From a virus (lineage: Duplodnaviria > Caudoviricetes), in IMG/VR virus record IMGVR_UViG_3300025413_001239: 64,000 bases of DNA; one strand, given 5' to 3'. Shown here piece by piece: positions 17,284 to 54,602 of this stretch. Each line of letters starts with the position of its first letter. Within the stretch, counting starts at the first letter, position 1. Below the pieces are notes generated by a model that saw nothing but the letters and a program-made list of their open reading frames with translations, was not told the origin of the DNA and made no database searches. Both the position numbers and the translations under genes were made by a program.

Positions 17284-17658
17284 ATGACAAAAGAAGAAAG
17301 AAGGCTTGACCTAAGCGGTAAGCTATTAAAAATGGGTGAGTCTTTAATATTAGAGGGTCGAGATTCTATGGATGGTTGTGTCATGGAAACTGGTAGTGCG
17401 TTAATTTTATTGGCTAATATCATTGAATCAGAAGATGATATGTTTGTTTTTGGTGAATTTGTATCTATGTTTTCAGCTAAGAAAGTATTAGAGGAAATGG
17501 AAAATAAGAAAAAACCTAATACAACTGAAGATTTACTAAAGGAAATTCTTGATTCATTTAAGAATGTCGGTAGTGATTTACCAAAAGAAACACCCAAAAA
17601 GACTCGTAGACCAAGAAAAAAAAGAAACGACAATGATGAACCAGAATCTGGTTCATAA
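17284..17658 (+). CDS. hypothetical protein
   Basis: ORF with basic tail behind a TATATTTG promoter. Confidence 0.7.
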   Translation: MTKEERRLDLSGKLLKMGESLILEGRDSMDGCVMETGSALILLANIIESEDDMFVFGEFVSMFSAKKVLEEMENKKKPNTTEDLLKEILDSFKNVGSDLPKETPKKTRRPRKKRNDNDEPESGS

Positions 17659-17681: not shown

Positions 17682-18272
17682 ATGTTAGCAATAGTAGAAT
17701 ACATAAAGAAAAATGGTTTAGATAATGCTATCGAAACTTTTAATTTAAAGGCTAAATTATACGAAAATAAGGTTCACATTAAATATGACCAAATAGGTTC
17801 GGATATGTCTCTTAAGGAGGTTCAAGAATGTCGTGGACTTATCCTAGATAGAAATACATTTGATGTAATCTCAATGTCCTTTTTCAAGTTCTTTAATAAC
17901 GGTGAAACTAATGCTGCTAAGATAGACTGGGATACAGCTCATGTATTTGAAAAAGTTGATGGTTGCCTTGATGAAAATACGTTGATAACGACTAATGAAG
18001 GTGTTAAAACGATTAAGGAAATTTGTGAAGAAAAACTTAATTGTAAAGTCTTGTCATATTGGGTTAATAGTAATGAGATTATCTTTGATGATATAATTGG
18101 ATGGTCAATTAAGGATAATATTAATGATTGGTATGAAATTAAATTGGATGACGAAACTTCAATTAAACTGACTGGTAATCATAAGGTTTGGTTACCAAAG
18201 CTAAATTGTTATAGACAAGTTTCAGATTTAACGGAAGCGGATGAATTCTTATTAAGTACTAAAAAAAATTAA
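17682..18272 (+). CDS. T4 Rnl1-like RNA ligase N-part plus N-terminal split intein (17964-18272)
   Basis: ECRGLIL, FFKFFN, EKVDG|CLDENTLI (block A), LTGNHKV (block B). Confidence 0.9.
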   Translation: MLAIVEYIKKNGLDNAIETFNLKAKLYENKVHIKYDQIGSDMSLKEVQECRGLILDRNTFDVISMSFFKFFNNGETNAAKIDWDTAHVFEKVDGCLDENTLITTNEGVKTIKEICEEKLNCKVLSYWVNSNEIIFDDIIGWSIKDNINDWYEIKLDDETSIKLTGNHKVWLPKLNCYRQVSDLTEADEFLLSTKKN

Positions 18273-18658
18273 ATTCTGGCAGCAATGTTTCAAATTTAGA
18301 AAAACGAATTGGTTATACTTTAGATAATTTAAATATTAAATTTGAAACTCAATATTTAATTAATAGGTTTTCTTATGATTATTATATCAATGATATAAAT
18401 TTATTAATAGAGGTTAATGGTGATTTTTGGCGTGCTAACCCAATAAAATATTTACCTGATGATATATTACCATTTCCGAAAAGTATTGAAATTAAAGCCA
18501 AAGATTTATGGTTAAAGGATAAACGAAAGAATGAATTAGCGATTAAAAATGGTTTTAATATAGTTACAATTTGGGAAATGGAGATTAATAATTTAAATAG
18601 TGTTGAACTTGAAATATTTTTGTTAAATAAATTAAATAACTTTATAAATGGAGACTAA
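18263..18658 (+). mobile_element. start-less Vsr/DUF559-like endonuclease domain between the intein halves
   Basis: Manual translation ...YDYYINDINLLIEVNGDFWRAN...KDKRKNELA...IWE; in the -1 frame, no start codon. Confidence 0.7.
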
Positions 18659-19610
18659 CGTAGTTAAAATAAAATCAATTAAAAAAATTGATTCTAATTC
18701 GAAAAGATATGACATACAAACAAAATTAACTAATAACTTTTTCGCTAATAATATTCTAGTTCATAACTCGATGATGCAAGTTTATTGGGACCCTTACGCT
18801 AATAAGTGGTTTGCTGGAACTACAGGTACTGCCGAAGGTGAGGGTGAAGTAAACAATAAGTCTGGGACAACGTTTAATGATTTGTTTTGGCAAGTTGTAA
18901 ACGACAAAGCTCCAAATATGCTTAGGTGGTTAAATAAGTTAAAGCATTGCACGTTTGTGTTTGAATTAACAACACCTTATAACATTGTGGTTAAGCCGCA
19001 TGGTGAATCTAGTATTACACTTTTAGCTGCAAGAGATAATCAAACACTTAAAGAGTTAAGGTATATTGATTTAAAGGTATTAGCAACAACTTTTGGTGTG
19101 CCAATAGTTAAATTATTCGACTTAAAAGCTAAGAACTTTGGTGACTTGATTAGAACATTTGAAGGAATGCCATGGTCTGAAGAAGGTTATGTCGTAATGG
19201 ATGAAAACTTCAATCGTGTTAAAGTTAAGAACCCAGCATACTGCGCTGTACATTTACTAAAAGGTAAATCAGCTGAACATAACATTTTAACAATCGTTAA
19301 GTCTAACGAAATTGAAGAATTCGCATCAACTTTCCCAGAAAGAAAAGAAGAATTATTTAAGCTTAAGGCCAACTACGATTTGTTGAATGCAAAGTTAAAT
19401 TCAGTGTGGGATGAACTAATACCAAGAAAGCCTAAAAACATAACAGCTAATGAAAAGAAGTTGTTTGCGGCTGCTGTATTTGAAGTTTGTAAGAAGCATA
19501 AGGTTGATAATTTCACTGGGTTATTCTTCCAATTGGAAGCTGGTAAAATAGAATCAGTTGATGAGTATTTGATGGAATATGACAATAAAAAGTTGTACCA
19601 TATACTTTAA
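18648..19610 (+). CDS. C-terminal split intein (40 aa) plus RNA ligase C-part
   Basis: RYDIQT..NNFFANNILVHN|SMMQV; FELTTP, EEGYVV, VKVKNPAY. Confidence 0.9.
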   Translation: METNVVKIKSIKKIDSNSKRYDIQTKLTNNFFANNILVHNSMMQVYWDPYANKWFAGTTGTAEGEGEVNNKSGTTFNDLFWQVVNDKAPNMLRWLNKLKHCTFVFELTTPYNIVVKPHGESSITLLAARDNQTLKELRYIDLKVLATTFGVPIVKLFDLKAKNFGDLIRTFEGMPWSEEGYVVMDENFNRVKVKNPAYCAVHLLKGKSAEHNILTIVKSNEIEEFASTFPERKEELFKLKANYDLLNAKLNSVWDELIPRKPKNITANEKKLFAAAVFEVCKKHKVDNFTGLFFQLEAGKIESVDEYLMEYDNKKLYHIL

Positions 19611-19618
19611 AAAATAAA

Positions 19619-19650
19619 TTTGGTGGAATGAAAGTTCCACCTTATTTTTG
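19619..19650 (+). promoter_or_regulatory. promoter with palindromic operator in the spacer
   Basis: TTTG-GTGGAA-tgaaag-TTCCACC-t-TATTTTTG; repeated at 62735 and 63127. Confidence 0.65.
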
Positions 19651-19670: not shown

Positions 19671-20402
19671 ATGACAATTAAGCAAATTTTCGATGAAATC
19701 GCAAGCGAATCATCTACGAACAAAAAAGTTGAAATCCTTAACAAGTATAAAGACAATGACTTATTAAAGAGGGTTCTGTATTTGGCTAATTCACCTCGTA
19801 TTAAGTTTTATATCAAGCAAATTCCAGAGTATGAATCTGGTCCATTTAATCAAGACTTATCAGTTGGTTTGGATAGCTTGAGTCCATTATCCTTAAGGCA
19901 ATTAACTGGACATGCTGCCATAAATCACTTAGCTGCAACTCTTGAGTTTTGTAGCGAAGATGATGCTTATATCATCGAGCGTATCATCGAAAAGGATTGC
20001 AAAATTAATTTGGGTACTTCACTTATTAATAAAGTATTTCCTAAACTAATTGAAGAAACACCTTACATGGGTGCTAAGGCTTTTGATGAGAAATTAGCTA
20101 AGGCTATATTTAAAGATGGTTCAGCTTTAAGCCAAGTTAAGATGGATGGTCGTTATTGCAATGCTGTAATAGCGAATAATTCAGTTGATATGGAAAGCCG
20201 CCAAGGTGAACCAACGCTATTAGGTGATGCGTATTTTATAAGCGAATTAAATCAGCTTAAGGATTGCGTTTTAAACGGTGAGTTGACAATGAAGTGTATT
20301 GAATCTAAATTTACTTTTAATAAAGACGATTTAATCGAAATTGACGGTATTAAATATACCACCAAAGAAATAAAAAATAAATTTTTACCATTAATTGAAT
20401 AA
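19671..20402 (+). CDS. lig: ATP-dependent DNA ligase, N-terminal half of a split gene
   Basis: Motif I KMDG, motif III LNGEL, then an unrelated tail of about 35 aa. Confidence 0.85.
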   Translation: MTIKQIFDEIASESSTNKKVEILNKYKDNDLLKRVLYLANSPRIKFYIKQIPEYESGPFNQDLSVGLDSLSPLSLRQLTGHAAINHLAATLEFCSEDDAYIIERIIEKDCKINLGTSLINKVFPKLIEETPYMGAKAFDEKLAKAIFKDGSALSQVKMDGRYCNAVIANNSVDMESRQGEPTLLGDAYFISELNQLKDCVLNGELTMKCIESKFTFNKDDLIEIDGIKYTTKEIKNKFLPLIE

Positions 20403-20440
20403 AATGAAAGTTCAACATATTTATAAATAAATATAAATTT

Positions 20441-21337
20441 ATGTATGTAACTTATTTAATTATTTATAATGGTGATAAATTACCACCATTATATATTGGG
20501 TCAACTAGTTTAGAAAAAATAGAGAATGGGTATCGAGGGTCAATCTCATCGAAGAAATATAAAAATATTTTTAAAGAAGAGTTAAAAAGTAATTTTAACC
20601 TATTCGATGTTATCATTCTATCAAAACATGAAACTAGAATTGAAGCATTGGAAATGGAATTAGATTTACAAAAAAAGTTTGATGTGGTAAAATCAAATAA
20701 ATTTATGAATCAATCCTTAGCATCAGTTAATGGCATGTTTGGTATGGATGTAAATGGTAAAAATAACCCAATGTTTGGTAAGAAACATTCAGACAAAACA
20801 AGAAATGTACTAAAGGAAAAACGTGGAAATAATAAACGATATGAATTAACCGATAAACATAAAGAAATTATTAGTAAAACACACGCTAATAAAGTTATTT
20901 CTGAAAACACAAAAAAATTAATTTCAGATAAATTAAAGGGTAAATACATAGGTAAAGATAATCCTATGTTTGGTAAAAAACATAGTGAAGAGACTAAAAT
21001 TAAAATATCTAAAAGTAACAGTGGTAAAATTAGAACAGATGAATTCAAACAAAGAACATCCGAATTAAATAAGGGTAAAATTATTTCTGAAGATACCAAG
21101 ATAAAAATATCTAGGGCTAAAATCGGAAAAAAACGTACTTCTTTTAGTAAAGAGTGGCGAGAAAATATATCTAAAGCTAATAAAGGTAGAATTCTTAGTG
21201 AAGAAACTCGAAAAAAACTGAGTAAACCAAGAGAATCAACAAAATCGGTATGCCCATATTGTGGGTTTATTGGTGGTGGCGGTAATATGAAACGCTATCA
21301 TTTTGAGAATTGTAAAATAAATAAAAATAAGGTATGA
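20441..21337 (+). mobile_element. GIY-YIG/NUMOD3 homing endonuclease in DNA ligase
   Basis: LYIGSTS, NPMFGKKHS repeats, CPYCG...GNMKRYHFENC. Confidence 0.85.
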
Positions 21338-22164
21338 ACATTAATTCTAATGAAATAAAAAAAATAATAGTTAATAACGATGGTAGTCTTGAAATATTGA
21401 CAATGAAGGGTATATCTCGTTACGAGAGCAACGGCATCATAGCATCTCTTATTTCAATTAGAAAGAAAGAATTAGATGGTAAGGATGTACGCAAGGAAAT
21501 ACTTGAGTTTGAAAAAGAACACATGGTTTATCAAACAGCGTTGGATTCAATTATTTTCACTGCTTGGGATATGATAACACTTGAAGAATATACTGCCGCT
21601 AAATCAGTTAGACAATATCGTGAAAGATACGCTGAATTGGTTGCGCTATTAAACGCTAATAATTTTACCAATCTTTCAGTTGTTGAAACAAAAGAGGTTA
21701 AGACTTATGAAGAAGCTATTGAACACTTTCAAGAGGTTTTAGCTAGAGGTGAAGAAGGTACAATACTTAAATCATCTAAGGGTGCTTGGAAAGACGGTAA
21801 ACCTAACCATCAAATTAAGCTAAAAAAAGAAATTAATCTTGATTTAAAAATTGTAGGTTTTAATTACGGAACGGGTAAAAATAAAGACGTTATATCATCC
21901 ATTGATGTTGAGAGTTCAGATGGTTTACTTAAAACGAGCCCGACAGGAATTAATGAATCTATGATGAAATTTATCACAGAAAATCAGGATAAACTTTTGA
22001 ACACTATTATTGAGGTAAAGTGTTCTGGGTTGTCAAAGGATTCAGATGGTAATTATTCTTTGTTACACCCAGTATTCAAATCTTTACGTACTGATGAAAA
22101 GAGTATTGCTGATTCATTAGATGAGTGTATTAAAATAGATAAAGCTGCTATGGGGTTATCTTAA
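21334..22164 (+). CDS. lig: DNA ligase, C-terminal half
   Basis: New 20 aa N-terminus, then LTMKGISRYESNG, FTAWD (IIIa), EGTILK (IV), KLK (V), OB fold. Confidence 0.85.
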   Translation: MNINSNEIKKIIVNNDGSLEILTMKGISRYESNGIIASLISIRKKELDGKDVRKEILEFEKEHMVYQTALDSIIFTAWDMITLEEYTAAKSVRQYRERYAELVALLNANNFTNLSVVETKEVKTYEEAIEHFQEVLARGEEGTILKSSKGAWKDGKPNHQIKLKKEINLDLKIVGFNYGTGKNKDVISSIDVESSDGLLKTSPTGINESMMKFITENQDKLLNTIIEVKCSGLSKDSDGNYSLLHPVFKSLRTDEKSIADSLDECIKIDKAAMGLS

Positions 22165-22330
22165 CGGCGTACCAACCAATATACATTTTATTAGCAATTA
22201 ATACTTCTTTTTTAATTGTATTTCCTTGGTATATTGGTTTACCATTATTGTAATAAGATTTTCTTAATGCCTTCGTTGGTAAACCATTTGTTTTACATAT
22301 TGTTTCAAAATTACCGTTACACATGAACAT
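22148..22330 (-). pseudogene. C-terminal remnant of an endonuclease gene
   Basis: 60 aa fragment resembling terminal DNA-binding repeats, back-to-back with another truncated HNH. Confidence 0.35.
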
Positions 22331-22342
22331 AAGTAAGTTTAT

Positions 22343-22759
22343 TTGTTAAAAAAACAATGGGTGAAGAATAATCATCAAGGTGTAAATGAATATCGTAAAA
22401 ATTACTATTTAAATAATAAAGAAAAAATACTAACAAAAAATAAAGAATGGAATAAAAAAAATGCGCATATTGTATCTTGGCGCACCATTTTGAAATCGCA
22501 ACTTAGGAGAATGGGTAATAGTAAAGAAGGAAAAACAATTGATTTATTAGGGTATTCAGCGTTAGAACTGAAAAACCATATCGAATCCTTATTTACTGAA
22601 GGTATGACTTGGGATAATCATGGTGAATGGCATATTGACCATAAAATACCCGTAACTAAATTTGAAAAAAATGTTCCTCCACATATTGTAAATGCGTTAA
22701 ATAATTTACAACCATTATGGGCGAACGAAAACAGAAGTAAATATAATAAAATTTTATAA
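22343..22759 (+). mobile_element. 5'-truncated HNH endonuclease (WHIDH family)
   Basis: WDNHGEWHIDHKIP...LNNLQPLWA.EN; paralogues at 48347, 52163 and 53784. Confidence 0.75.
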
Positions 22760-22775
22760 ATTAAAAATAATTGAA

Positions 22776-23609
22776 ATGACAAGTAAACGACATATCGGGT
22801 TTCCATCTATTGACCAGTTTAAGACAGTTGTCTCCAACATCAATAGAAGACACAATTTTGTTGGTTTGGATGCCAACGGTGATGCAATTTATGACCCATC
22901 AAAACCTAAGCCAAAGCTTAAGTTTAAGGGTACGGTAAAACTACATGGTACCAACTTCGGTGTATGTTATAATGACATCGCTGGATTATGGGCACAATCT
23001 AGGGAAAATATAATCACCTCCCAAAAAGATAATGCTGGCTCCGCTTTTTTTGTTGAGTCCAATACAGAAGCTTTCTTGGATTTATTTAACCAAGTAAAGA
23101 ATAAGTTAAATTTGGATTTGACTCAAAACACAATTTCAATTTATGGTGAGTGGGCTGGTAAGGGTATTCAAAAGTCTGTTGCGATTTCCAATTTGGATAA
23201 GTCTATGTTTATTTTTGGTGTTAAGATTACACCTCATCCAAAGGATGAAGATGATAAGACACCAGCTTATTGGGTTGATTCGTCATACCTAAGGAACCAT
23301 GAGCATAGGATTTACAATATTGAGGATTATGAGACTTATGAGATTGAAATCGATTTCAATTATCCTCAATTGGCTCAGAATAAGCTAATTGAAATGACTA
23401 TTGCTGTTGAGGATGAATGTCCTGTTGGTAAAGCCTTTGGTCATGTTGCGTTAACAGACAATACAGCATATGAAGAAAATGGTAAAATTTGGTTTGAACG
23501 AGAAAATAGTTTTACAGATATATTAAAAAATCAATTAATTGATGAATTTAGAATACTTCGTAATAAATATCCGATAGGTATAAATAAAATATTTTTTACT
23601 ATTCTATAG
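22776..23609 (+). CDS. Rnl2-family RNA ligase, N-terminal half of a split gene
   Basis: Motif I KLHGTN, QSRE, IYGEWAG; homology ends at ECPVGKAFG (23441), followed by a 55 aa tail. Confidence 0.85.
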   Translation: MTSKRHIGFPSIDQFKTVVSNINRRHNFVGLDANGDAIYDPSKPKPKLKFKGTVKLHGTNFGVCYNDIAGLWAQSRENIITSQKDNAGSAFFVESNTEAFLDLFNQVKNKLNLDLTQNTISIYGEWAGKGIQKSVAISNLDKSMFIFGVKITPHPKDEDDKTPAYWVDSSYLRNHEHRIYNIEDYETYEIEIDFNYPQLAQNKLIEMTIAVEDECPVGKAFGHVALTDNTAYEENGKIWFERENSFTDILKNQLIDEFRILRNKYPIGINKIFFTIL

Positions 23610-23652
23610 TCTTTTATACAATACCCAGATATTTATAAATAAAGATAAATAT

Positions 23653-24648
23653 ATGGAAAAAAAATTTGTTGTGTATCGAACAATTTATTCTGGTGATAGA
23701 TTACCGAAATATTACATTGGTTCAACTAGTTTAGAAAAGATAAAATCTGGTTATTATGGTAGTGTCAGAAGTAAAAAATATAAAGATATTTTCTATTCTG
23801 AATTAAAACTACATCCTAATTTATTTAGTATTGAGATTTTGTCATACCATGATTCTAGGAATGATGCACTTTCAGAAGAATTATTACAACAAATTAAACA
23901 CAATGTTGTTGAGTCGGACGAATACTTTAATGAAAGTTTTGCTAGTATAAATGGTTATTTTGGTAGACATGTCAAAGGCATTAGCCATCCAAAATTTGGT
24001 TTATCAAATTACAAAATTTGGATTAATAAATATGGTTTAGATATTGCTAATGAAAAATTAAAAGTTTATTTAACGAAACAAAGTATATCTAACGGCGGTA
24101 AGAATAATCCAATGTTTGGTAGAAATAAAGAAGTTGTTGCAATTGATGTAAATAGCGGTCTGAAGGTTCGTGTAAATAAAGTCGAGTTTGATAATCGAAT
24201 TGATTTATCTGGTCATACACTTGGATATGTTACGGTTATTGATAAATCAACTGGTGAAAAAATAACGATTAATAAATCTAATTATAACTTAGAAAAACAT
24301 TTACATCATAACACAAATAGAAAACATAATGATACAGTTAAAGCTAAACTCTCAAAAATTAGAAAGGGTTTAATAACCGCTAAAGATTGGGATGGTAATT
24401 ATTATCGGGTGAGTAAAGATGACCCTAGATTTGAATCAGGTGAATTATCAAATATTTTTAGTAAACGTTGGATAGTTGTTGATAATTTTGGTAAGAAATA
24501 TAATGTTATGAATATTAAAAAATTTATGAAAAGTAAAAATATTCATTTTAATGAAAAAATTATAATTAACTCTGATGGTAGTGTAACAAATCATAATGTT
24601 AAAAAATATAATTCATTAAATGGTTGGAATTTAAAATGTTTAGATTAA
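23653..24648 (+). mobile_element. GIY-YIG homing endonuclease in Rnl2, paralogue of 20441
   Basis: GDRLPKYYIGSTSLEKI versus GDKLPPLYIGSTSLEKI. Confidence 0.85.
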
Positions 24649-24660
24649 AAATAAAATAAA

Positions 24661-25143
24661 ATGTATAAAATTAAATTAATTAGTGGTGGTTCGTCTGAAC
24701 ATCAAGAAGAAATTAACAAGGTTATTGATTTGGATATAAATACAATCGGTGAGGGTATTGTTTTCTCTTATTATGCTGAGGATGGTGAGGTTTATCGGTT
24801 CAAATCTAAGGGAACTAAACACTCAAAGGCTTCTAAAGTTACAACACTTAAGCCAGTTGATGATGCTAAAATCAATAACATTATTGAAACTGTTAATAAG
24901 GTTTGTGTTTCTTGGAGACTTGAGCAAATGCTTGACAAGACCTTTGACCTTATGAATGGTGGTACCATTGACATCAAAAGGCTTGGTGATTTTATTAGAA
25001 ATGTTATCGCCGATATTCTTAAAGAAGAATTGGAAACAATAGCTGAGGCTGGCCTTGAACCTAAAGACATTAATGCTAAGGTTTCTGAGAGATGTCGAAA
25101 TTACTTTTTTCAAAAACAAAATGAAGAAGTTGGGCTTGTTTAA
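24661..25143 (+). CDS. Rnl2 RNA ligase, C-terminal half
   Basis: New 28 aa N-terminus, then IGEGIV (motif IV) and FKSKG (motif V). Confidence 0.85.
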   Translation: MYKIKLISGGSSEHQEEINKVIDLDINTIGEGIVFSYYAEDGEVYRFKSKGTKHSKASKVTTLKPVDDAKINNIIETVNKVCVSWRLEQMLDKTFDLMNGGTIDIKRLGDFIRNVIADILKEELETIAEAGLEPKDINAKVSERCRNYFFQKQNEEVGLV

Positions 25144-25202
25144 AGCCTGACTTTTACTTTATTTACTAATTTAAAAGATTTATTATATTAAAATAAAAAA
25201 TT

Positions 25203-48360: not shown

Positions 48361-49072
48361 ACCCTTTAGACAAATTATCATACCACCATAACGGTTGTAA
48401 ATTGGATAATGCATTTACAATCTTTATATCCGTATTTTTATCGAATGTTGAAACTGGTTTAATATGGTCGATGTGCCATTCACCATAATTATCCCAAGTC
48501 ATATCTTCAGTAAATAACTTTTCAATATGATTTTTTAACTCTAAAGCTGAATAACCAAGTATATCAACTGTATTTTTCTCTTTCTTTTTATTAAATCTTC
48601 TTAATACAGATTTCAATGAACTTCTCCAAGCTCTTATATGTGGATTTTTTAAATCATATTGTTTTTTATATTCAGCAATTTTTTCTTTGTTGTTTTGTCT
48701 ATATTCTTTTTGGTATTCCAATATATGTGATTTATTTTTTACATAATCTTCTTTTTTTAGCCTCTTAATTATTTCAGGATTTGAATCTCTATAGTTTTTA
48801 CGATTAGTACTAATAATATTTCGATTAAGCTTATAATATTCTAGATTTGTTTTTTTAATGCTATCAGATTCTTTCAAATATTTAATTTTTGATTTTTCAC
48901 TTAATCTTTCTTTGTTTTTTTTATAAAAATTTTGTTTATCGATACTTATACAATTTTTACAAATTTTTTTATAACCATCAATAAAATTTTTATTTTTGTG
49001 AAATTCACAAAAATCTTTTTTTTTATTACATTTTACACATTTTTTCATAATTACTTTTATTATAAATATCAC
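48347..49072 (-). mobile_element. HNH endonuclease (WHIDH family) at the rnr 3' end
   Basis: N-terminal CxxC/CxxC; WDNYGEWHIDHIKP...LSNLQPLW. Confidence 0.85.
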
Positions 49073-52173: not shown

Positions 52174-52750
52174 GGTTATGTACACAATATTTCTTTATGT
52201 CTCGATTAACCTTAGAACATAATGGTTGTAAATTAGAATAGTGGTTTAATCGAAGTAATTCAATTTCATTAATCGCTGAGTCTAAGGGTATTATATGGTC
52301 AATATCCCAACCATAATTTAATTCACCATTATATAACCCACGATTATTCCAATTCATCCATGGTTCAAATTTTGATTCTAAATATAATTTAAAATCATCG
52401 TAAGAGCATCCAAGTATTTTTTCTGTTTTTGATAATTTTTTAAAATTATTATGTCTTAATGAGTTTCCGATTAAATTTCTTATATTAGTTTTTAATTTGA
52501 ATAAGGTATCATTATTACGTTTTACCTTATAATATTCGTTAAGTTTATTTTTATTTTCCTTAGCCCATTTTTTTGAGCTATCTAAGATTTTATCTTTATT
52601 TGTTTCGTAATACGCTTTTTTACTTTCTTTAATTTTATCTCGATTGTTCTCTAAGTATTTTCTTCTTTTTTCTTTATTAGCTGCTTGATATGCTTTATCA
52701 TAAATTCGTTTAGCCTCTTTTTTTTCCTCTAATGTTAATTCTTTTTTCAT
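52163..52750 (-). mobile_element. HNH endonuclease (WHIDH family) flanked by a 16-bp inverted repeat
   Basis: WDIDHIIP..LNHYSNLQPL; GGGTTATGTACACAAT (52173-52188) and ATTGTGTACATAACCC (52817-52832). Confidence 0.85.
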
Positions 52751-53783: not shown

Positions 53784-54602
53784 TTATATTATATCACGTT
53801 TAACCCACCTATTAACATAACTACATAACGGCTTGAGGTTTGTATAATGGTTTAATTTAACCACATCCTCTTCTGTTATAGCAGTTGTTACAGGAATGAT
53901 ATGGTCAATATCCCATGTCTTATTCGGTTCAAATAAACCGTCTTTAGGGTTACCGTAATTATCCCAATTCATCCATGATTCCCATTGAGATTCTAAGTGA
54001 AGTTTAAATTCATCAAATGAACATCCAAGTATTTTTTCTGATTTAAGTGATTTTTTAAAGCCTTTATTTTTAATTGACGAGCGAATTAATTGCCTAATAT
54101 TAGTTTTTATTCGGAAGAGTGGTTCTGTTTGTTTACGTTCCCTATTTCTAGCATTACGTTTATCCTTATCACCCTTAAATTTTTCTTTATTAGCCTGATA
54201 ATACGTTTTATTGTAAGCGGCTCTTTCTTCGGGTGTTTTTGATTTTTTTACTTTAGGTAATTTATTTAATTTAACTAAACTACGTTGTTCTTTTAATCTT
54301 TGATTACGTTTTATTTTATTTTCTTCTTTACTGCTATATATTTTATTTATGCTCGATATTTTAGATTTATTAACTTCTCGATATTCCTTGGCTTTTTTTG
54401 TTATCTTTTCTTTATTAGCCTCACGGTAATTTTTTTGTAATTCAATTAATTTAACTTTGTTAGCTTCACACCAAGCTTTTCGTTGTTCAGCTATTTTTTC
54501 TTTATTAGCTTTACGCCATTGTTTTTGCTGTTCAGCTAATTTTTCTTTGTTAGCTTCACGCCAAGCTTTTCGTTGTTCAGCTATTTTTTCTTGTTTTGTC
54601 AT
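53784..54602 (-). mobile_element. HNH endonuclease (WHIDH family) with N-terminal tandem repeats
   Basis: EKIAEQRKAWREANK-type 15 aa repeats; WDIDHIIP..LNHYTNLKPL. Confidence 0.85.

What the first reader, a model, noticed from the sequence alone, without database searches (positions are those of the whole stretch)
19671..25143. DNA ligase and Rnl2 both fractured inside the catalytic core by paralogous GIY-YIG cassettes, without intron or intein
DNA ligase is cut just after motif III. The 12-bp repeat TTGACAATGAAG (20283-94, 21397-408) brackets the insert, and its exact removal restores LNGELTMKGISRYESNG in frame. Rnl2 is cut just before motif IV. Each N-half gains a 35-55 aa tail and each C-half a 20-28 aa head; spacers are too short for a ribozyme and no C...HN intein ends are present. 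The two endonucleases are close paralogues. With the Ro60-like gene, that makes three such splits, pointing to a recurring mobile strategy that supplies adaptor peptides for non-covalent reassembly. All three ligases in 17.7-25.1 kb are interrupted.
Basis: partly seen in the sequence, partly recalled or inferred. Interest (0 to 1): 0.8.

Follow-up and report, generated by a model that had tools for sequence, protein, structure and literature searches.

The report
Phage ligase genes split by endonucleases
In this large phage a DNA ligase gene and an RNA ligase gene have each been cut in two by a selfish endonuclease gene, and each cut comes with short conserved extra peptides on the two halves; this repeats, in new genes, a trick already shown for one phage enzyme.

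Summary
The ATP-dependent DNA ligase (19671-20402 and 21334-22164) and the Rnl2-type RNA ligase (22776-23609 and 24661-25143) are each cut inside the nucleotidyltransferase core by a free-standing GIY-YIG endonuclease gene. The 12-bp repeat is exact. About 75 related metagenomic phages carry contiguous genes that read straight across both junctions.

No group I intron or intein signal was found. Only 38-55 nt of each insert is non-coding.

New here:
- The same two sites are occupied in other, distantly related phages: ligase in 3 further contigs, Rnl2 in 7, plus 13 database clusters.
- The tail and head peptides are conserved and under purifying selection, at least as strongly as the enzyme cores.
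- Tail, endonuclease and head are more alike between phages than the surrounding gene is, and split alleles are scattered over both gene trees. The cassette therefore moves laterally with its peptides.
- Tails and heads persist where the endonuclease is frameshifted, deleted or replaced.
- The ligase and Rnl2 peptides are unrelated to each other.

This matches the Aeh1 nrdA-a/mobE/nrdA-b precedent (Friedrich 2007; Crona 2011), so it is a new member of a known kind. Binding and activity of the halves are inferred, not shown. The third ligase (Rnl1-like, 17682-19610) is split by a genuine split intein.

The parts
19671..20294 (+). DNA ligase N-half core (N-terminal DNA-binding domain, motif I KMDG, motif III LNGELTMK)
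   Evidence: Aligns end to end with intact ligases of about 75 relatives; the family HMM alignment stops at aa 209-215
20295..20402 (+). Ligase N-half tail, 35 aa plus TAA stop
   Evidence: Absent from intact relatives. Conserved in L071/L115 (69%) and L080 (38%), with 11 invariant columns. L071 vs L115 shows 4 synonymous and 0 non-synonymous changes
20283..20294 (+). Left copy of the 12-bp direct repeat TTGACAATGAAG (codes LTMK)
   Evidence: The same duplication occurs in L080 (11 of 12 bases) and L071 (first 8 bases)
20417..20429 (+). ATATTTATAAATA motif 12-24 nt before the endonuclease ATG; probable phage promoter or gene-start signal
   Evidence: Present before the endonuclease in all nine cassettes examined. 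In the window, 10 of 21 plus-strand copies lie within 60 nt upstream of an ORF of 80 aa or more, against 1.4 expected at random
20441..21337 (+). Free-standing GIY-YIG/NUMOD3 homing endonuclease gene 1 (298 aa)
   Evidence: Pfam NUMOD3 4e-19, GIY-YIG 0.002. 58% identical to the L080 copy and 80% to the frameshifted L115 copy
21334..21408 (+). Ligase C-half head (25 aa). Its ATG overlaps the endonuclease stop (ATGA); it ends in the right copy of the 12-bp repeat (21397-21408)
   Evidence: L071 vs L116 shows 4 synonymous and 0 non-synonymous changes. Residues 1-19 have pLDDT < 50 when the C-half is folded alone
21409..22164 (+). DNA ligase C-half core (motifs IIIa, IV EGTILK, V IKLK, OB domain)
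   Evidence: Pfam DNA_ligase_A_M positions 113-204; alignment to intact relatives
22343..22759 (+). Free-standing HNH endonuclease gene between ligase and Rnl2 (context)
   Evidence: HNH signature by eye. Paralogues lie at 48365-48760 and elsewhere in the window. Homologues sit upstream of Rnl2 in L029 and L083
22776..23447 (+). Rnl2 N-half core (motifs I KLHGTN, III GEWAG, IIIa)
   Evidence: Pfam RNA_ligase 1e-8. The AF2 model aligns to T4 Rnl2 1S68 with Z 11.2, rmsd 3.6 over 174 residues, model range 5-225
23448..23609 (+). Rnl2 N-half tail, 53 aa plus TAG stop
   Evidence: 15 invariant columns in 6 alleles. L037 vs L080 differ at codon positions 1/2/3 by 3/3/21. 13 database cluster representatives at E < 1e-10, always C-terminal. 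Predicted as hairpin, helix, strand
23629..23641 (+). Second copy of the ATATTTATAAATA motif before endonuclease 2
   Evidence: (D16)
23653..24648 (+). Free-standing GIY-YIG homing endonuclease gene 2 (331 aa)
   Evidence: 55% identical to endonuclease 1 over aa 1-112. 91% to L111 and 50-54% to L037, L080 and L083
24661..24744 (+). Rnl2 C-half head (28 aa)
   Evidence: Absent from intact relatives. Pattern (M)EY.[IF]KL... conserved in L037, L070, L080 and L112
24745..25143 (+). Rnl2 C-half core (motif IV GEGIVF, motif V FKSKG, C-terminal domain)
   Evidence: Alignment to intact Rnl2 of Caulobacter phage Cr30 and about 70 metagenomic relatives
17682..19610 (+). Context: Rnl1-like ligase split by a true split intein. 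N-extein plus 102-aa IntN at 17682-18272; start-less Vsr-like endonuclease remnant at 18263-18658; 40-aa IntC plus C-extein at 18648-19610
   Evidence: Pfam Intein_splicing on both halves; open frame without a start codon. Relative L111 still has a 310-aa DUF7487 gene there

Best explanation
Both ligase genes are 'genes in pieces' created by homing-endonuclease cassettes. Each cassette consists of a tail-coding segment with a stop codon, a short AT-rich gene-start motif, a free-standing GIY-YIG endonuclease gene, and a new start codon with a head-coding segment. It sits at one fixed site inside the nucleotidyltransferase domain: after motif III in the DNA ligase and before motif IV in Rnl2.

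Shown:
- The cassette is an insertion relative to contiguous genes in most relatives.
- It recurs at exactly the same sites in distantly related phages.
- It is more similar between phages than the flanking gene, as homing with co-conversion would give.
- The tail and head are translated and under purifying selection, and survive decay or swap of the endonuclease.

Inferred:
- The endonuclease cuts cassette-free alleles during co-infection, and repair copies the whole unit in.
- N-half and C-half are translated separately from one transcript. No terminator-like hairpin lies between them, and the ligase C-half start overlaps the endonuclease stop.
- The halves assemble non-covalently into an enzyme with a composite active site.
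- The site-specific tail and head stabilise or enable that assembly, as the tails of Aeh1 NrdA-a/NrdA-b do.
- The 12-bp LTMK duplication is part of the ligase cassette. Most likely it is a scar of the founding microhomology-mediated insertion, kept because each half needs that strand.
For: - Contiguous genes across both junctions: nearly all of about 80 ligase loci and about 70 Rnl2 loci.
- Same-site insertions: ligase in L080, L071 and L115; Rnl2 in L037, L080, L070, L083 and L111-L113.
- Selection on the peptides:
  - Rnl2 tail, L037 vs L080: 91% aa identity, with differences at codon positions 1/2/3 of 3/3/21.
  - Ligase tail plus head, L071 vs L115/L116: 8 synonymous and 0 non-synonymous changes, against 46 and 49 in the core (Fisher p = 0.006).
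  - Rnl2 tail identity between distant alleles is 46-57%, equal to or above core identity of 41-52%.
- Lateral movement:
  - L037 vs L080 nt identity is 68-71% in the distal core, 82-90% across the last 200 nt of the N core plus tail, endonuclease and head, and 71% again further on.
  - The L115 endonuclease is 80% identical to the window's, while the ligase core is 63%.
  - The window vs L111 Rnl2 block is 88% identical against 70-79% for neighbouring genes, and L111 has an intact ligase.
  - The split state needs at least 5 changes on the Rnl2 tree and at least 3 on the ligase tree.
- Persistence without the original nuclease: frameshifted in L115 with an intact C-half, deleted in L071, and a different GIY-YIG lineage (25-33% identity) in L070.
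- Spread: 13 cluster representatives carry the Rnl2 tail, always at the C-terminus of an N-half.
- No intron or intein.
- Precedent with biochemistry: PMC3045599 and the review PMC2988022.
Against: - No direct evidence that the halves bind or are active. The complex predictor and read data were unavailable.
- Unlike the Aeh1 tails, these tails and heads show no opposite-charge pattern.
- In Aeh1 the tails were not needed for heterodimer formation itself, so 'adaptor for assembly' may be too simple.
- The ligase head is low-confidence when folded alone, and the Rnl2 tail only moderate (pLDDT 59-78).
- In L071 the ligase C-half carries a further break, so at least one split allele may be decaying.
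- Conservation of the tails could partly reflect DNA-level constraints, such as endonuclease regulation. The third-position bias argues against that being the main cause.
Confidence: 0.75

Rival explanations
1. The split genes are dead. The endonuclease insertions inactivated the ligases, the halves are decaying fragments, and the extensions are accidental read-through.
For: L071's ligase C-half has a second break near motif V. Phages can often use host ligases (general knowledge).
Against: - All catalytic motifs are intact in both halves.
- The cores show third-position-biased divergence, for example 61/43/139 for the Rnl2 N core, window vs L080.
- Tails and heads evolve under purifying selection.
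- Stop and start positions are conserved across alleles that share only about 40-65% core identity.
- The Rnl2 split form is found in 13 or more 50%-identity clusters.
Confidence: 0.08
2. Tail and head are the remains of a split intein, or an atypical one, and the halves are still joined covalently by protein trans-splicing.
For: - The same genome uses true split inteins next door and elsewhere (earlier notes).
- The window's ligase tail starts with Cys.
- Both tails contain a beta-hairpin with a D/N-G turn followed by a helix, loosely like intein block A.
- Crona et al. raised this origin for the Aeh1 tails.
Against: - Tail plus head is only 60 aa (ligase) or 81 aa (Rnl2), too short for a HINT fold.
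- No Pfam Hint or Intein hit, even at E <= 10 on the tails.
- The first tail residue is C, S or P across ligase alleles and A, I or V in Rnl2.
- No ...HN before the junction.
- The +1 residue is Gly (ligase) or Ile/Gly (Rnl2), not C, S or T.
Confidence: 0.05
3. The insert is removed at the nucleic-acid level: a cryptic self-splicing intron, or precise deletion or slippage between the 12-bp repeats, yields some intact ligase gene or mRNA.
For: An exact 12-bp direct repeat brackets the ligase insert, and its removal restores the frame. Phage GIY-YIG genes often live in group I introns (general knowledge).
Against: - No Rfam intron match at E <= 10.
- Nearly the whole insert is coding, and the tail and head are selected as protein.
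- Rnl2 has no flanking repeat.
- In L071 the two repeat copies have diverged to 8 shared bases without loss of the arrangement.
Confidence: 0.05
4. The tails and heads are selected for something other than reassembly, for example shielding the cassette-bearing allele from its own nuclease, controlling nuclease expression, or altering ligase specificity.
For: - In Aeh1 the tails were not needed for heterodimer formation but for a later assembly step.
- The tail stop lies just upstream of the conserved ATATTTAT motif.
Against: - The third-position-biased substitution pattern shows protein-level selection, not DNA-level selection.
- The peptides persist after nuclease loss (L071), so their role does not depend on the nuclease.
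Confidence: 0.07

Closest known systems
Aeromonas phage Aeh1 nrdA-a / mobE / nrdA-b (Friedrich et al. 2007 PNAS; Crona et al. 2011 NAR, PMC3045599)
   Same: - A free-standing homing endonuclease gene sits inside the catalytic core of an essential nucleic-acid enzyme.
- No intron or intein.
- There are new stop and start codons.
- The N-half has a unique C-terminal tail and the C-half a unique N-terminal tail.
- The endonuclease gene overlaps the start of the downstream half.
- Active-site residues are divided between two polypeptides.
   Different: - The nuclease here is GIY-YIG, not HNH.
- The targets are a DNA ligase and Rnl2, not ribonucleotide reductase.
- There is no opposite-charge pattern in the tails.
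- Many alleles exist, so conservation, selection and lateral movement of the tails can be shown; Aeh1 was a single case.
- No biochemistry here.
T4 topoisomerase gene 39 / mobA / gene 60, and Aeromonas phage 25 DNA polymerase 43A / seg43(25) / 43B (review PMC2988022)
   Same: A phage replication enzyme is split into two co-purifying polypeptides at a homing-endonuclease insertion. The phage 25 case involves a GIY-YIG (seg-like) gene.
   Different: The T4 cassette also carries the 50-nt ribosomal bypass. For phage 25 it is unclear whether the nuclease caused the split. Conserved portable tail and head pairs were not described for either.
Fractured genes with split inteins and free-standing endonucleases (Dassa et al. 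2009, PMC2677866)
   Same: The gene order is the same: N-half, endonuclease (GIY-YIG or Vsr-like), C-half. The environment is the same (metagenomic phages), and a DNA ligase is among the hosts. The neighbouring Rnl1-like gene in this window is a member.
   Different: The ligase and Rnl2 extensions lack every intein hallmark and are far too short, so rejoining cannot be by protein splicing.
Group I intron-encoded GIY-YIG endonucleases (I-TevI in T4 td)
   Same: A GIY-YIG nuclease with NUMOD-type DNA-binding modules, inserted at a conserved catalytic-site codon of a phage enzyme gene and spread by homing.
   Different: There is no ribozyme. The flanks of the nuclease gene are translated as parts of the two host polypeptides.

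Membership tests
Endonuclease-fractured 'genes in pieces' with tails (Aeh1 nrdA type) | Gene is contiguous in related genomes and the break is an insertion | tested here: met
   Contiguous ligase and Rnl2 in about 75 and about 70 relatives, reading straight across both junctions
Endonuclease-fractured 'genes in pieces' with tails (Aeh1 nrdA type) | Free-standing homing endonuclease ORF between the halves, not embedded in an intron or intein | tested here: met
   GIY-YIG/NUMOD3 ORFs; no Rfam intron and no Pfam intein; 38-55 nt non-coding in each insert
Endonuclease-fractured 'genes in pieces' with tails (Aeh1 nrdA type) | Unique tail on the N-half and head on the C-half, absent from intact homologues | tested here: met
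   Family HMM alignments stop at the junctions; tails and heads are conserved only among split alleles
Endonuclease-fractured 'genes in pieces' with tails (Aeh1 nrdA type) | Halves assemble into an active enzyme, and the tails are required | not testable with these tools
Purifying selection on tails and heads is indirect support only
Split-intein fractured genes (Dassa 2009) | IntN begins with Cys/Ser and has blocks A and B; IntC ends in HN followed by Cys/Ser/Thr; together they form a HINT fold of about 130 aa | tested here: not met
   Ligase and Rnl2: no Hint or Intein Pfam hit; first tail residue is C, S or P, or A, I or V; +1 residue is Gly or Ile; 60 and 81 aa in total. The neighbouring Rnl1-like gene does meet these features
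Group I intron carrying a GIY-YIG ORF | Ribozyme core (P3-P9) flanking or enclosing the ORF | tested here: not met
   No Rfam match at E <= 10. Almost all flanking sequence is protein-coding under purifying selection
GIY-YIG homing endonucleases | N-terminal GIY...YIG catalytic domain plus NUMOD-type DNA-binding modules | tested here: met
   Endonuclease 1: NUMOD3 4e-19, GIY-YIG 0.002 (below Pfam's cut-off). Endonuclease 2: SegE_GIY-YIG 0.012, and 55% identity to endonuclease 1 over the catalytic domain. Cleavage activity not tested
ATP-dependent DNA ligase (T4 gp30-like) | Motifs I, III, IIIa, IV, V and the OB domain in order | tested here: met
   Present but divided between two ORFs. 46-54% identical to Cellulophaga phage phi4:1 ligase over both halves; Pfam DNA_ligase_A_M 1.6e-07 (above cut-off) on the C-half and a weak sub-threshold hit (0.031) on the N-half
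Rnl2-type RNA ligase | Rnl2 nucleotidyltransferase fold with motifs I, III, IIIa, IV, V and a C-terminal helical domain | tested here: met
   Pfam RNA_ligase. N-half model vs T4 Rnl2 1S68: Z 11.2, rmsd 3.6, 174 residues aligned. Motifs IV and V and the C-domain lie in the C-half by alignment to intact homologues

The most novel reading that the evidence does not exclude
Each tail and head pair may be the two parts of a small self-complementing fold that the homing cassette carries with it. For Rnl2 this would be hairpin-helix-strand on the tail plus one or two strands on the head. That would be a naturally evolved, portable protein-fragment-complementation tag, which lets a selfish endonuclease invade the catalytic core of an essential enzyme at no cost to the phage. 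If so, phage metagenomes would hold a library of site-specific natural heterodimerisation tags. 'Tail-assisted gene fission' would then be a third general way, beside introns and inteins, by which mobile endonucleases neutralise their insertions.
Probability: 0.3. Interest if true: 0.7.

Novelty: new member of a known kind. Interest (0 to 1): 0.5.

Why it matters
Crona et al. (2011) showed for a single phage enzyme that tails created by an endonuclease insertion rescue a fragmented gene. They predicted that this might be a general mechanism that similarity searches overlook.

This locus and its metagenomic relatives give the first comparative support I know of. Two further enzyme families carry fixed insertion sites with conserved, selected tail and head peptides. 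The peptides move laterally together with the nuclease gene and outlive it.

The finding also yields concrete, short natural peptide pairs to test as heterodimerisation modules. It explains why annotation pipelines will report 'truncated' ligases in such phages. Finally, one genome uses a split intein and tail-type fission side by side in three adjacent RNA/DNA repair genes.

Tried and rejected
1. Tails as degenerate duplicates ('decoys') of the gene's own next segment. By eye the Rnl2 tail resembles the motif IV-V hairpin. Against this: Smith-Waterman scores against shuffles were not significant; HMMs of the intact families stop aligning at the junction; the N-half model aligns to Rnl2 structures only over residues 5-225. 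Rejected, except for the real 4-5-residue LTMK overlap in the ligase.
2. Homology between the ligase tail and the Rnl2 tail: hhalign found none.
3. Known family for the Rnl2 tail:
   - Pfam at E <= 10 gave nothing useful.
   - The ESM Atlas feature search gave no lead.
   - Weak hits of the tail profile (a Prok_Ub repeat protein, FG-GAP, Reg_prop) share only a D-G beta-hairpin.
4. Fused forms with tail and head in one chain: none among the profile hits.
5. A cultured phage carrying the Rnl2 tail: no tblastn match in 50,697 phage records.
6. More ligase-tail carriers in the 5.8-billion protein set: only the window's own.
No binding test, read-level test or genome-wide count of cassettes was therefore possible.
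8. Similarity of the ligase head to the C-terminus of endonuclease 2 (repeat D17; E = 0.06): not conserved in the L037/L080 nucleases, so treated as chance.
9. The KLEP7 'intein-containing RNA ligase': its intein sits after motif III, at a different site, so it is not an ancestor of this split.

Full report
**What is there.** The window is AT-rich (about 30% G+C) phage DNA. Earlier notes on the same genome place other findings more than 150 kb away, so it is a very large phage. Between 16.3 and 25.1 kb lies a plus-strand nucleic-acid repair block:
- a kinase/phosphoesterase gene;
- an Rnl1-like RNA ligase;
- an ATP-dependent DNA ligase;
- an HNH endonuclease gene;
- an Rnl2-type RNA ligase.

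All three ligases are in two ORFs.

**DNA ligase.**
- The N-half (19671-20402) matches intact ligases up to LNGELTMK (motif III, aa 208), then runs on for 35 unrelated residues.
- A 298-aa GIY-YIG/NUMOD3 ORF follows after 38 nt (20441-21337).
- The C-half starts at an ATG that overlaps the endonuclease stop (21334). It has a 25-residue head ending in LTMK, then resumes at GISRYESNG.
- The 12-bp repeat TTGACAATGAAG is exact and unique to these two places. Shuffles expect 0.03 copies.

**Rnl2.**
- The N-half (22776-23609) matches intact homologues to ECPVGKAFGHV, then has a 53-residue tail.
- A 331-aa GIY-YIG ORF follows (23653-24648).
- The C-half (24661-25143) has a 28-residue head before IGEGIVF, which is motif IV.

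**The two nucleases.** They are 55% identical over the first 112 residues only.

**Relatives give the before-and-after picture.** Two scans of IMG/VR with the N-half cores returned 109 loci.
- Nearly all carry contiguous ligase and Rnl2 genes that read straight across both junctions. For example, L004, L008 and L009 read LNGELTMKGISRYESNG.
- The ligase site is also occupied in L080 (intact GIY-YIG, 58% identical), L115 (GIY-YIG 80% identical but frameshifted, followed by two small extra ORFs and an intact C-half) and L071 (nuclease deleted, small ORFs retained).
- The Rnl2 site is occupied in L037, L080, L083, L070 and the close relative L111-L113.
- L070 carries a GIY-YIG gene only 25-33% identical to the others.
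- L111 has an intact 461-aa ligase but a split Rnl2.

**The extensions are real, selected peptides.** In every occupied allele the tail and head are present at the same lengths and with conserved patterns (alignments A3, A6, A7).
- Rnl2 tail, L037 vs L080: 91% aa identity, with nucleotide differences of 3/3/21 at codon positions 1/2/3.
- Ligase tail plus head, L071 vs L115/L116: eight synonymous and no non-synonymous changes, against 46 and 49 in the N core (Fisher p = 0.006).
- Between distant Rnl2 alleles the tail is as conserved as the enzyme core or more so (46-57% against 41-52%).
- A profile of the Rnl2 tail, searched against 1.84 billion cluster representatives, found 13 at E < 1e-10. 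In each the tail ends an N-half of about 270-283 aa or a contig-end fragment, and it is never internal.
- One hit (P0014) starts with a C-intein and ends with the tail. That Rnl2 is therefore in three pieces, using both solutions.

**The cassette moves.**
- L037 and L080 are 68-71% identical in the distal N core. Identity is 82-90% over the last 200 nt of the core plus tail, nuclease and head, and falls to 71% again further into the C core.
- L071 and L115 rise from 50-81% to 94% toward the cassette.
- The window and L111 are 88% identical over the Rnl2 block but 70-79% in neighbouring genes.
- On maximum-likelihood trees of the cores, the split state needs at least five changes among six Rnl2 rows and at least three among four ligase rows.

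This pattern is what homing with co-conversion of flanks produces. The mobile unit includes the tail and head.

**Not an intron, not an intein.**
- An E-value Rfam scan found no intron family.
- The inserts have only 38 nt (ligase) or 43+12 nt (Rnl2) outside ORFs.
- Pfam finds intein pieces on both halves of the neighbouring Rnl1-like gene but none on these four halves, nor on the tails at E <= 10.
- The first tail residue is C, S or P in the ligase alleles and A, I or V in the Rnl2 alleles.
- The residue after the junction is Gly or Ile.
- Tail plus head is 60 or 81 residues in total.

**Structure hints.**
- AF2 of the Rnl2 N-half (34-sequence alignment, mean pLDDT 84.6) predicts the tail as a beta-hairpin (230-240), a helix (248-264) and a strand (271-273), at pLDDT 59-78.
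- The model superposes on T4 Rnl2 (1S68; Z 11.2, rmsd 3.6, 174 residues) only over residues 5-225, so the tail is an addition to the fold.
- AF2 of the ligase C-half leaves head residues 1-19 below pLDDT 50, with LTM as a short strand.
- The tails and heads show no charge complementarity.
- The ligase and Rnl2 tails are unrelated.

**Expression logic (inferred).**
- No terminator-like hairpin lies between the halves. Such hairpins flank the block at 17636-17656, 19622-19641 and 25125-25155.
- An ATATTTAT motif lies 12-24 nt upstream of every nuclease ATG in all nine cassettes, including L070's unrelated nuclease.
- In the window the motif precedes ORFs of 80 aa or more in 10 of 21 plus-strand occurrences, against 1.4 expected at random. 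It is probably a phage promoter or start signal that also feeds the downstream half.

**Comparison with what is known.** The arrangement matches the Aeh1 nrdA-a/mobE/nrdA-b case.
- There, tails created by the insertion are essential for activity, and the authors predicted that similar, sequence-unrelated tails would exist at other fractured genes (PMC3045599).
- Other precedents are T4 39/mobA/60 and phage 25 43A/seg/43B (PMC2988022).
- Dassa et al. noted that endonucleases also fracture intein-less genes (PMC2677866).
- I found no paper describing tail-type fission of a DNA ligase or Rnl2.

**Verdict.** What this locus adds is new host genes, several events in one genome, and comparative evidence that the tail and head peptides are conserved, site-specific, co-mobile with the nuclease gene and retained after its decay. 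Non-covalent assembly and activity remain inferences.

Noticed in passing
window 17682-19610; L111:1406-3926: The Rnl1-like ligase is split in motif I (KVDG|C...) by a true split intein: a 102-aa IntN and a 40-aa IntC ending in HN|S. Between the halves is a start-less 131-codon Vsr-like frame (18263-18658). Relative L111 still has a 310-aa DUF7487 gene at that place, so the window's endonuclease has decayed while the split intein remains.
   Followed up: partly
P0014: A 244-aa metagenomic Rnl2 piece begins with a C-intein (...NGTLVHN|S) and ends with the conserved tail. That Rnl2 is therefore in three pieces, using a split intein at one site and tail-type fission at the other.
   Followed up: no
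L071:1910-2679: In L071 the ligase C-half is broken again near motif V. One ORF ends ...WQIKCILM and a second frame overlaps it, with about 20 residues missing. This could be a decaying allele, a further split or an assembly error. Relative L115/L116 has an intact 278-codon C-half.
   Followed up: partly
L115:5085-5649; L071:1495-1879: The ligase cassette of L115 and L071 carries two extra small ORFs after the nuclease, one of them Cys-rich. Neither has a Pfam match. These cassettes can therefore pick up cargo.
   Followed up: no
window, e.g. 12715, 14635, 20417, 23629, 29785, 32188, 33703, 52864, 56490: ATATTTAT lies 12-24 nt upstream of many gene starts. On the plus strand, 10 of 21 hits precede an ORF of 80 aa or more, against 1.4 expected at random. 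It lies upstream of every cassette nuclease in related phages, so it is probably this phage group's promoter or start motif.
   Followed up: partly
window 23607-23642: The Rnl2 N-half ends in TAG, as it does in L037, L080 and L111. Read-through would add only 10 residues before a TAA. L070 and L083 end in TAA.
   Followed up: no
window 1703-4115: The 'Ro60-like' gene (Pfam DUF2828, DUF7788, VWA) is in two ORFs around an antisense SegE-like GIY-YIG gene. The halves match DUF2828 profile positions 1-123 and 274-395, so about a third of the profile is not matched. This split may differ in kind from the two ligase splits.
   Followed up: partly
window 22343-22759, 48365-48760, 52199-52666, 53808-54215: At least four paralogous free-standing HNH endonuclease genes lie in the window. 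The copy before Rnl2 has 63-69% identical homologues at the same place in L029 and L083.
   Followed up: no
P0019: A protein made of three Prok_Ub (PF14454) repeats shares the hairpin motif N-[AT]-T-A-Y-x-D-E-[DN]-G-x-I-x-F with the Rnl2 tail. The match is too short to call homology, but it hints that the tail hairpin could belong to a beta-grasp-like unit.
   Followed up: partly
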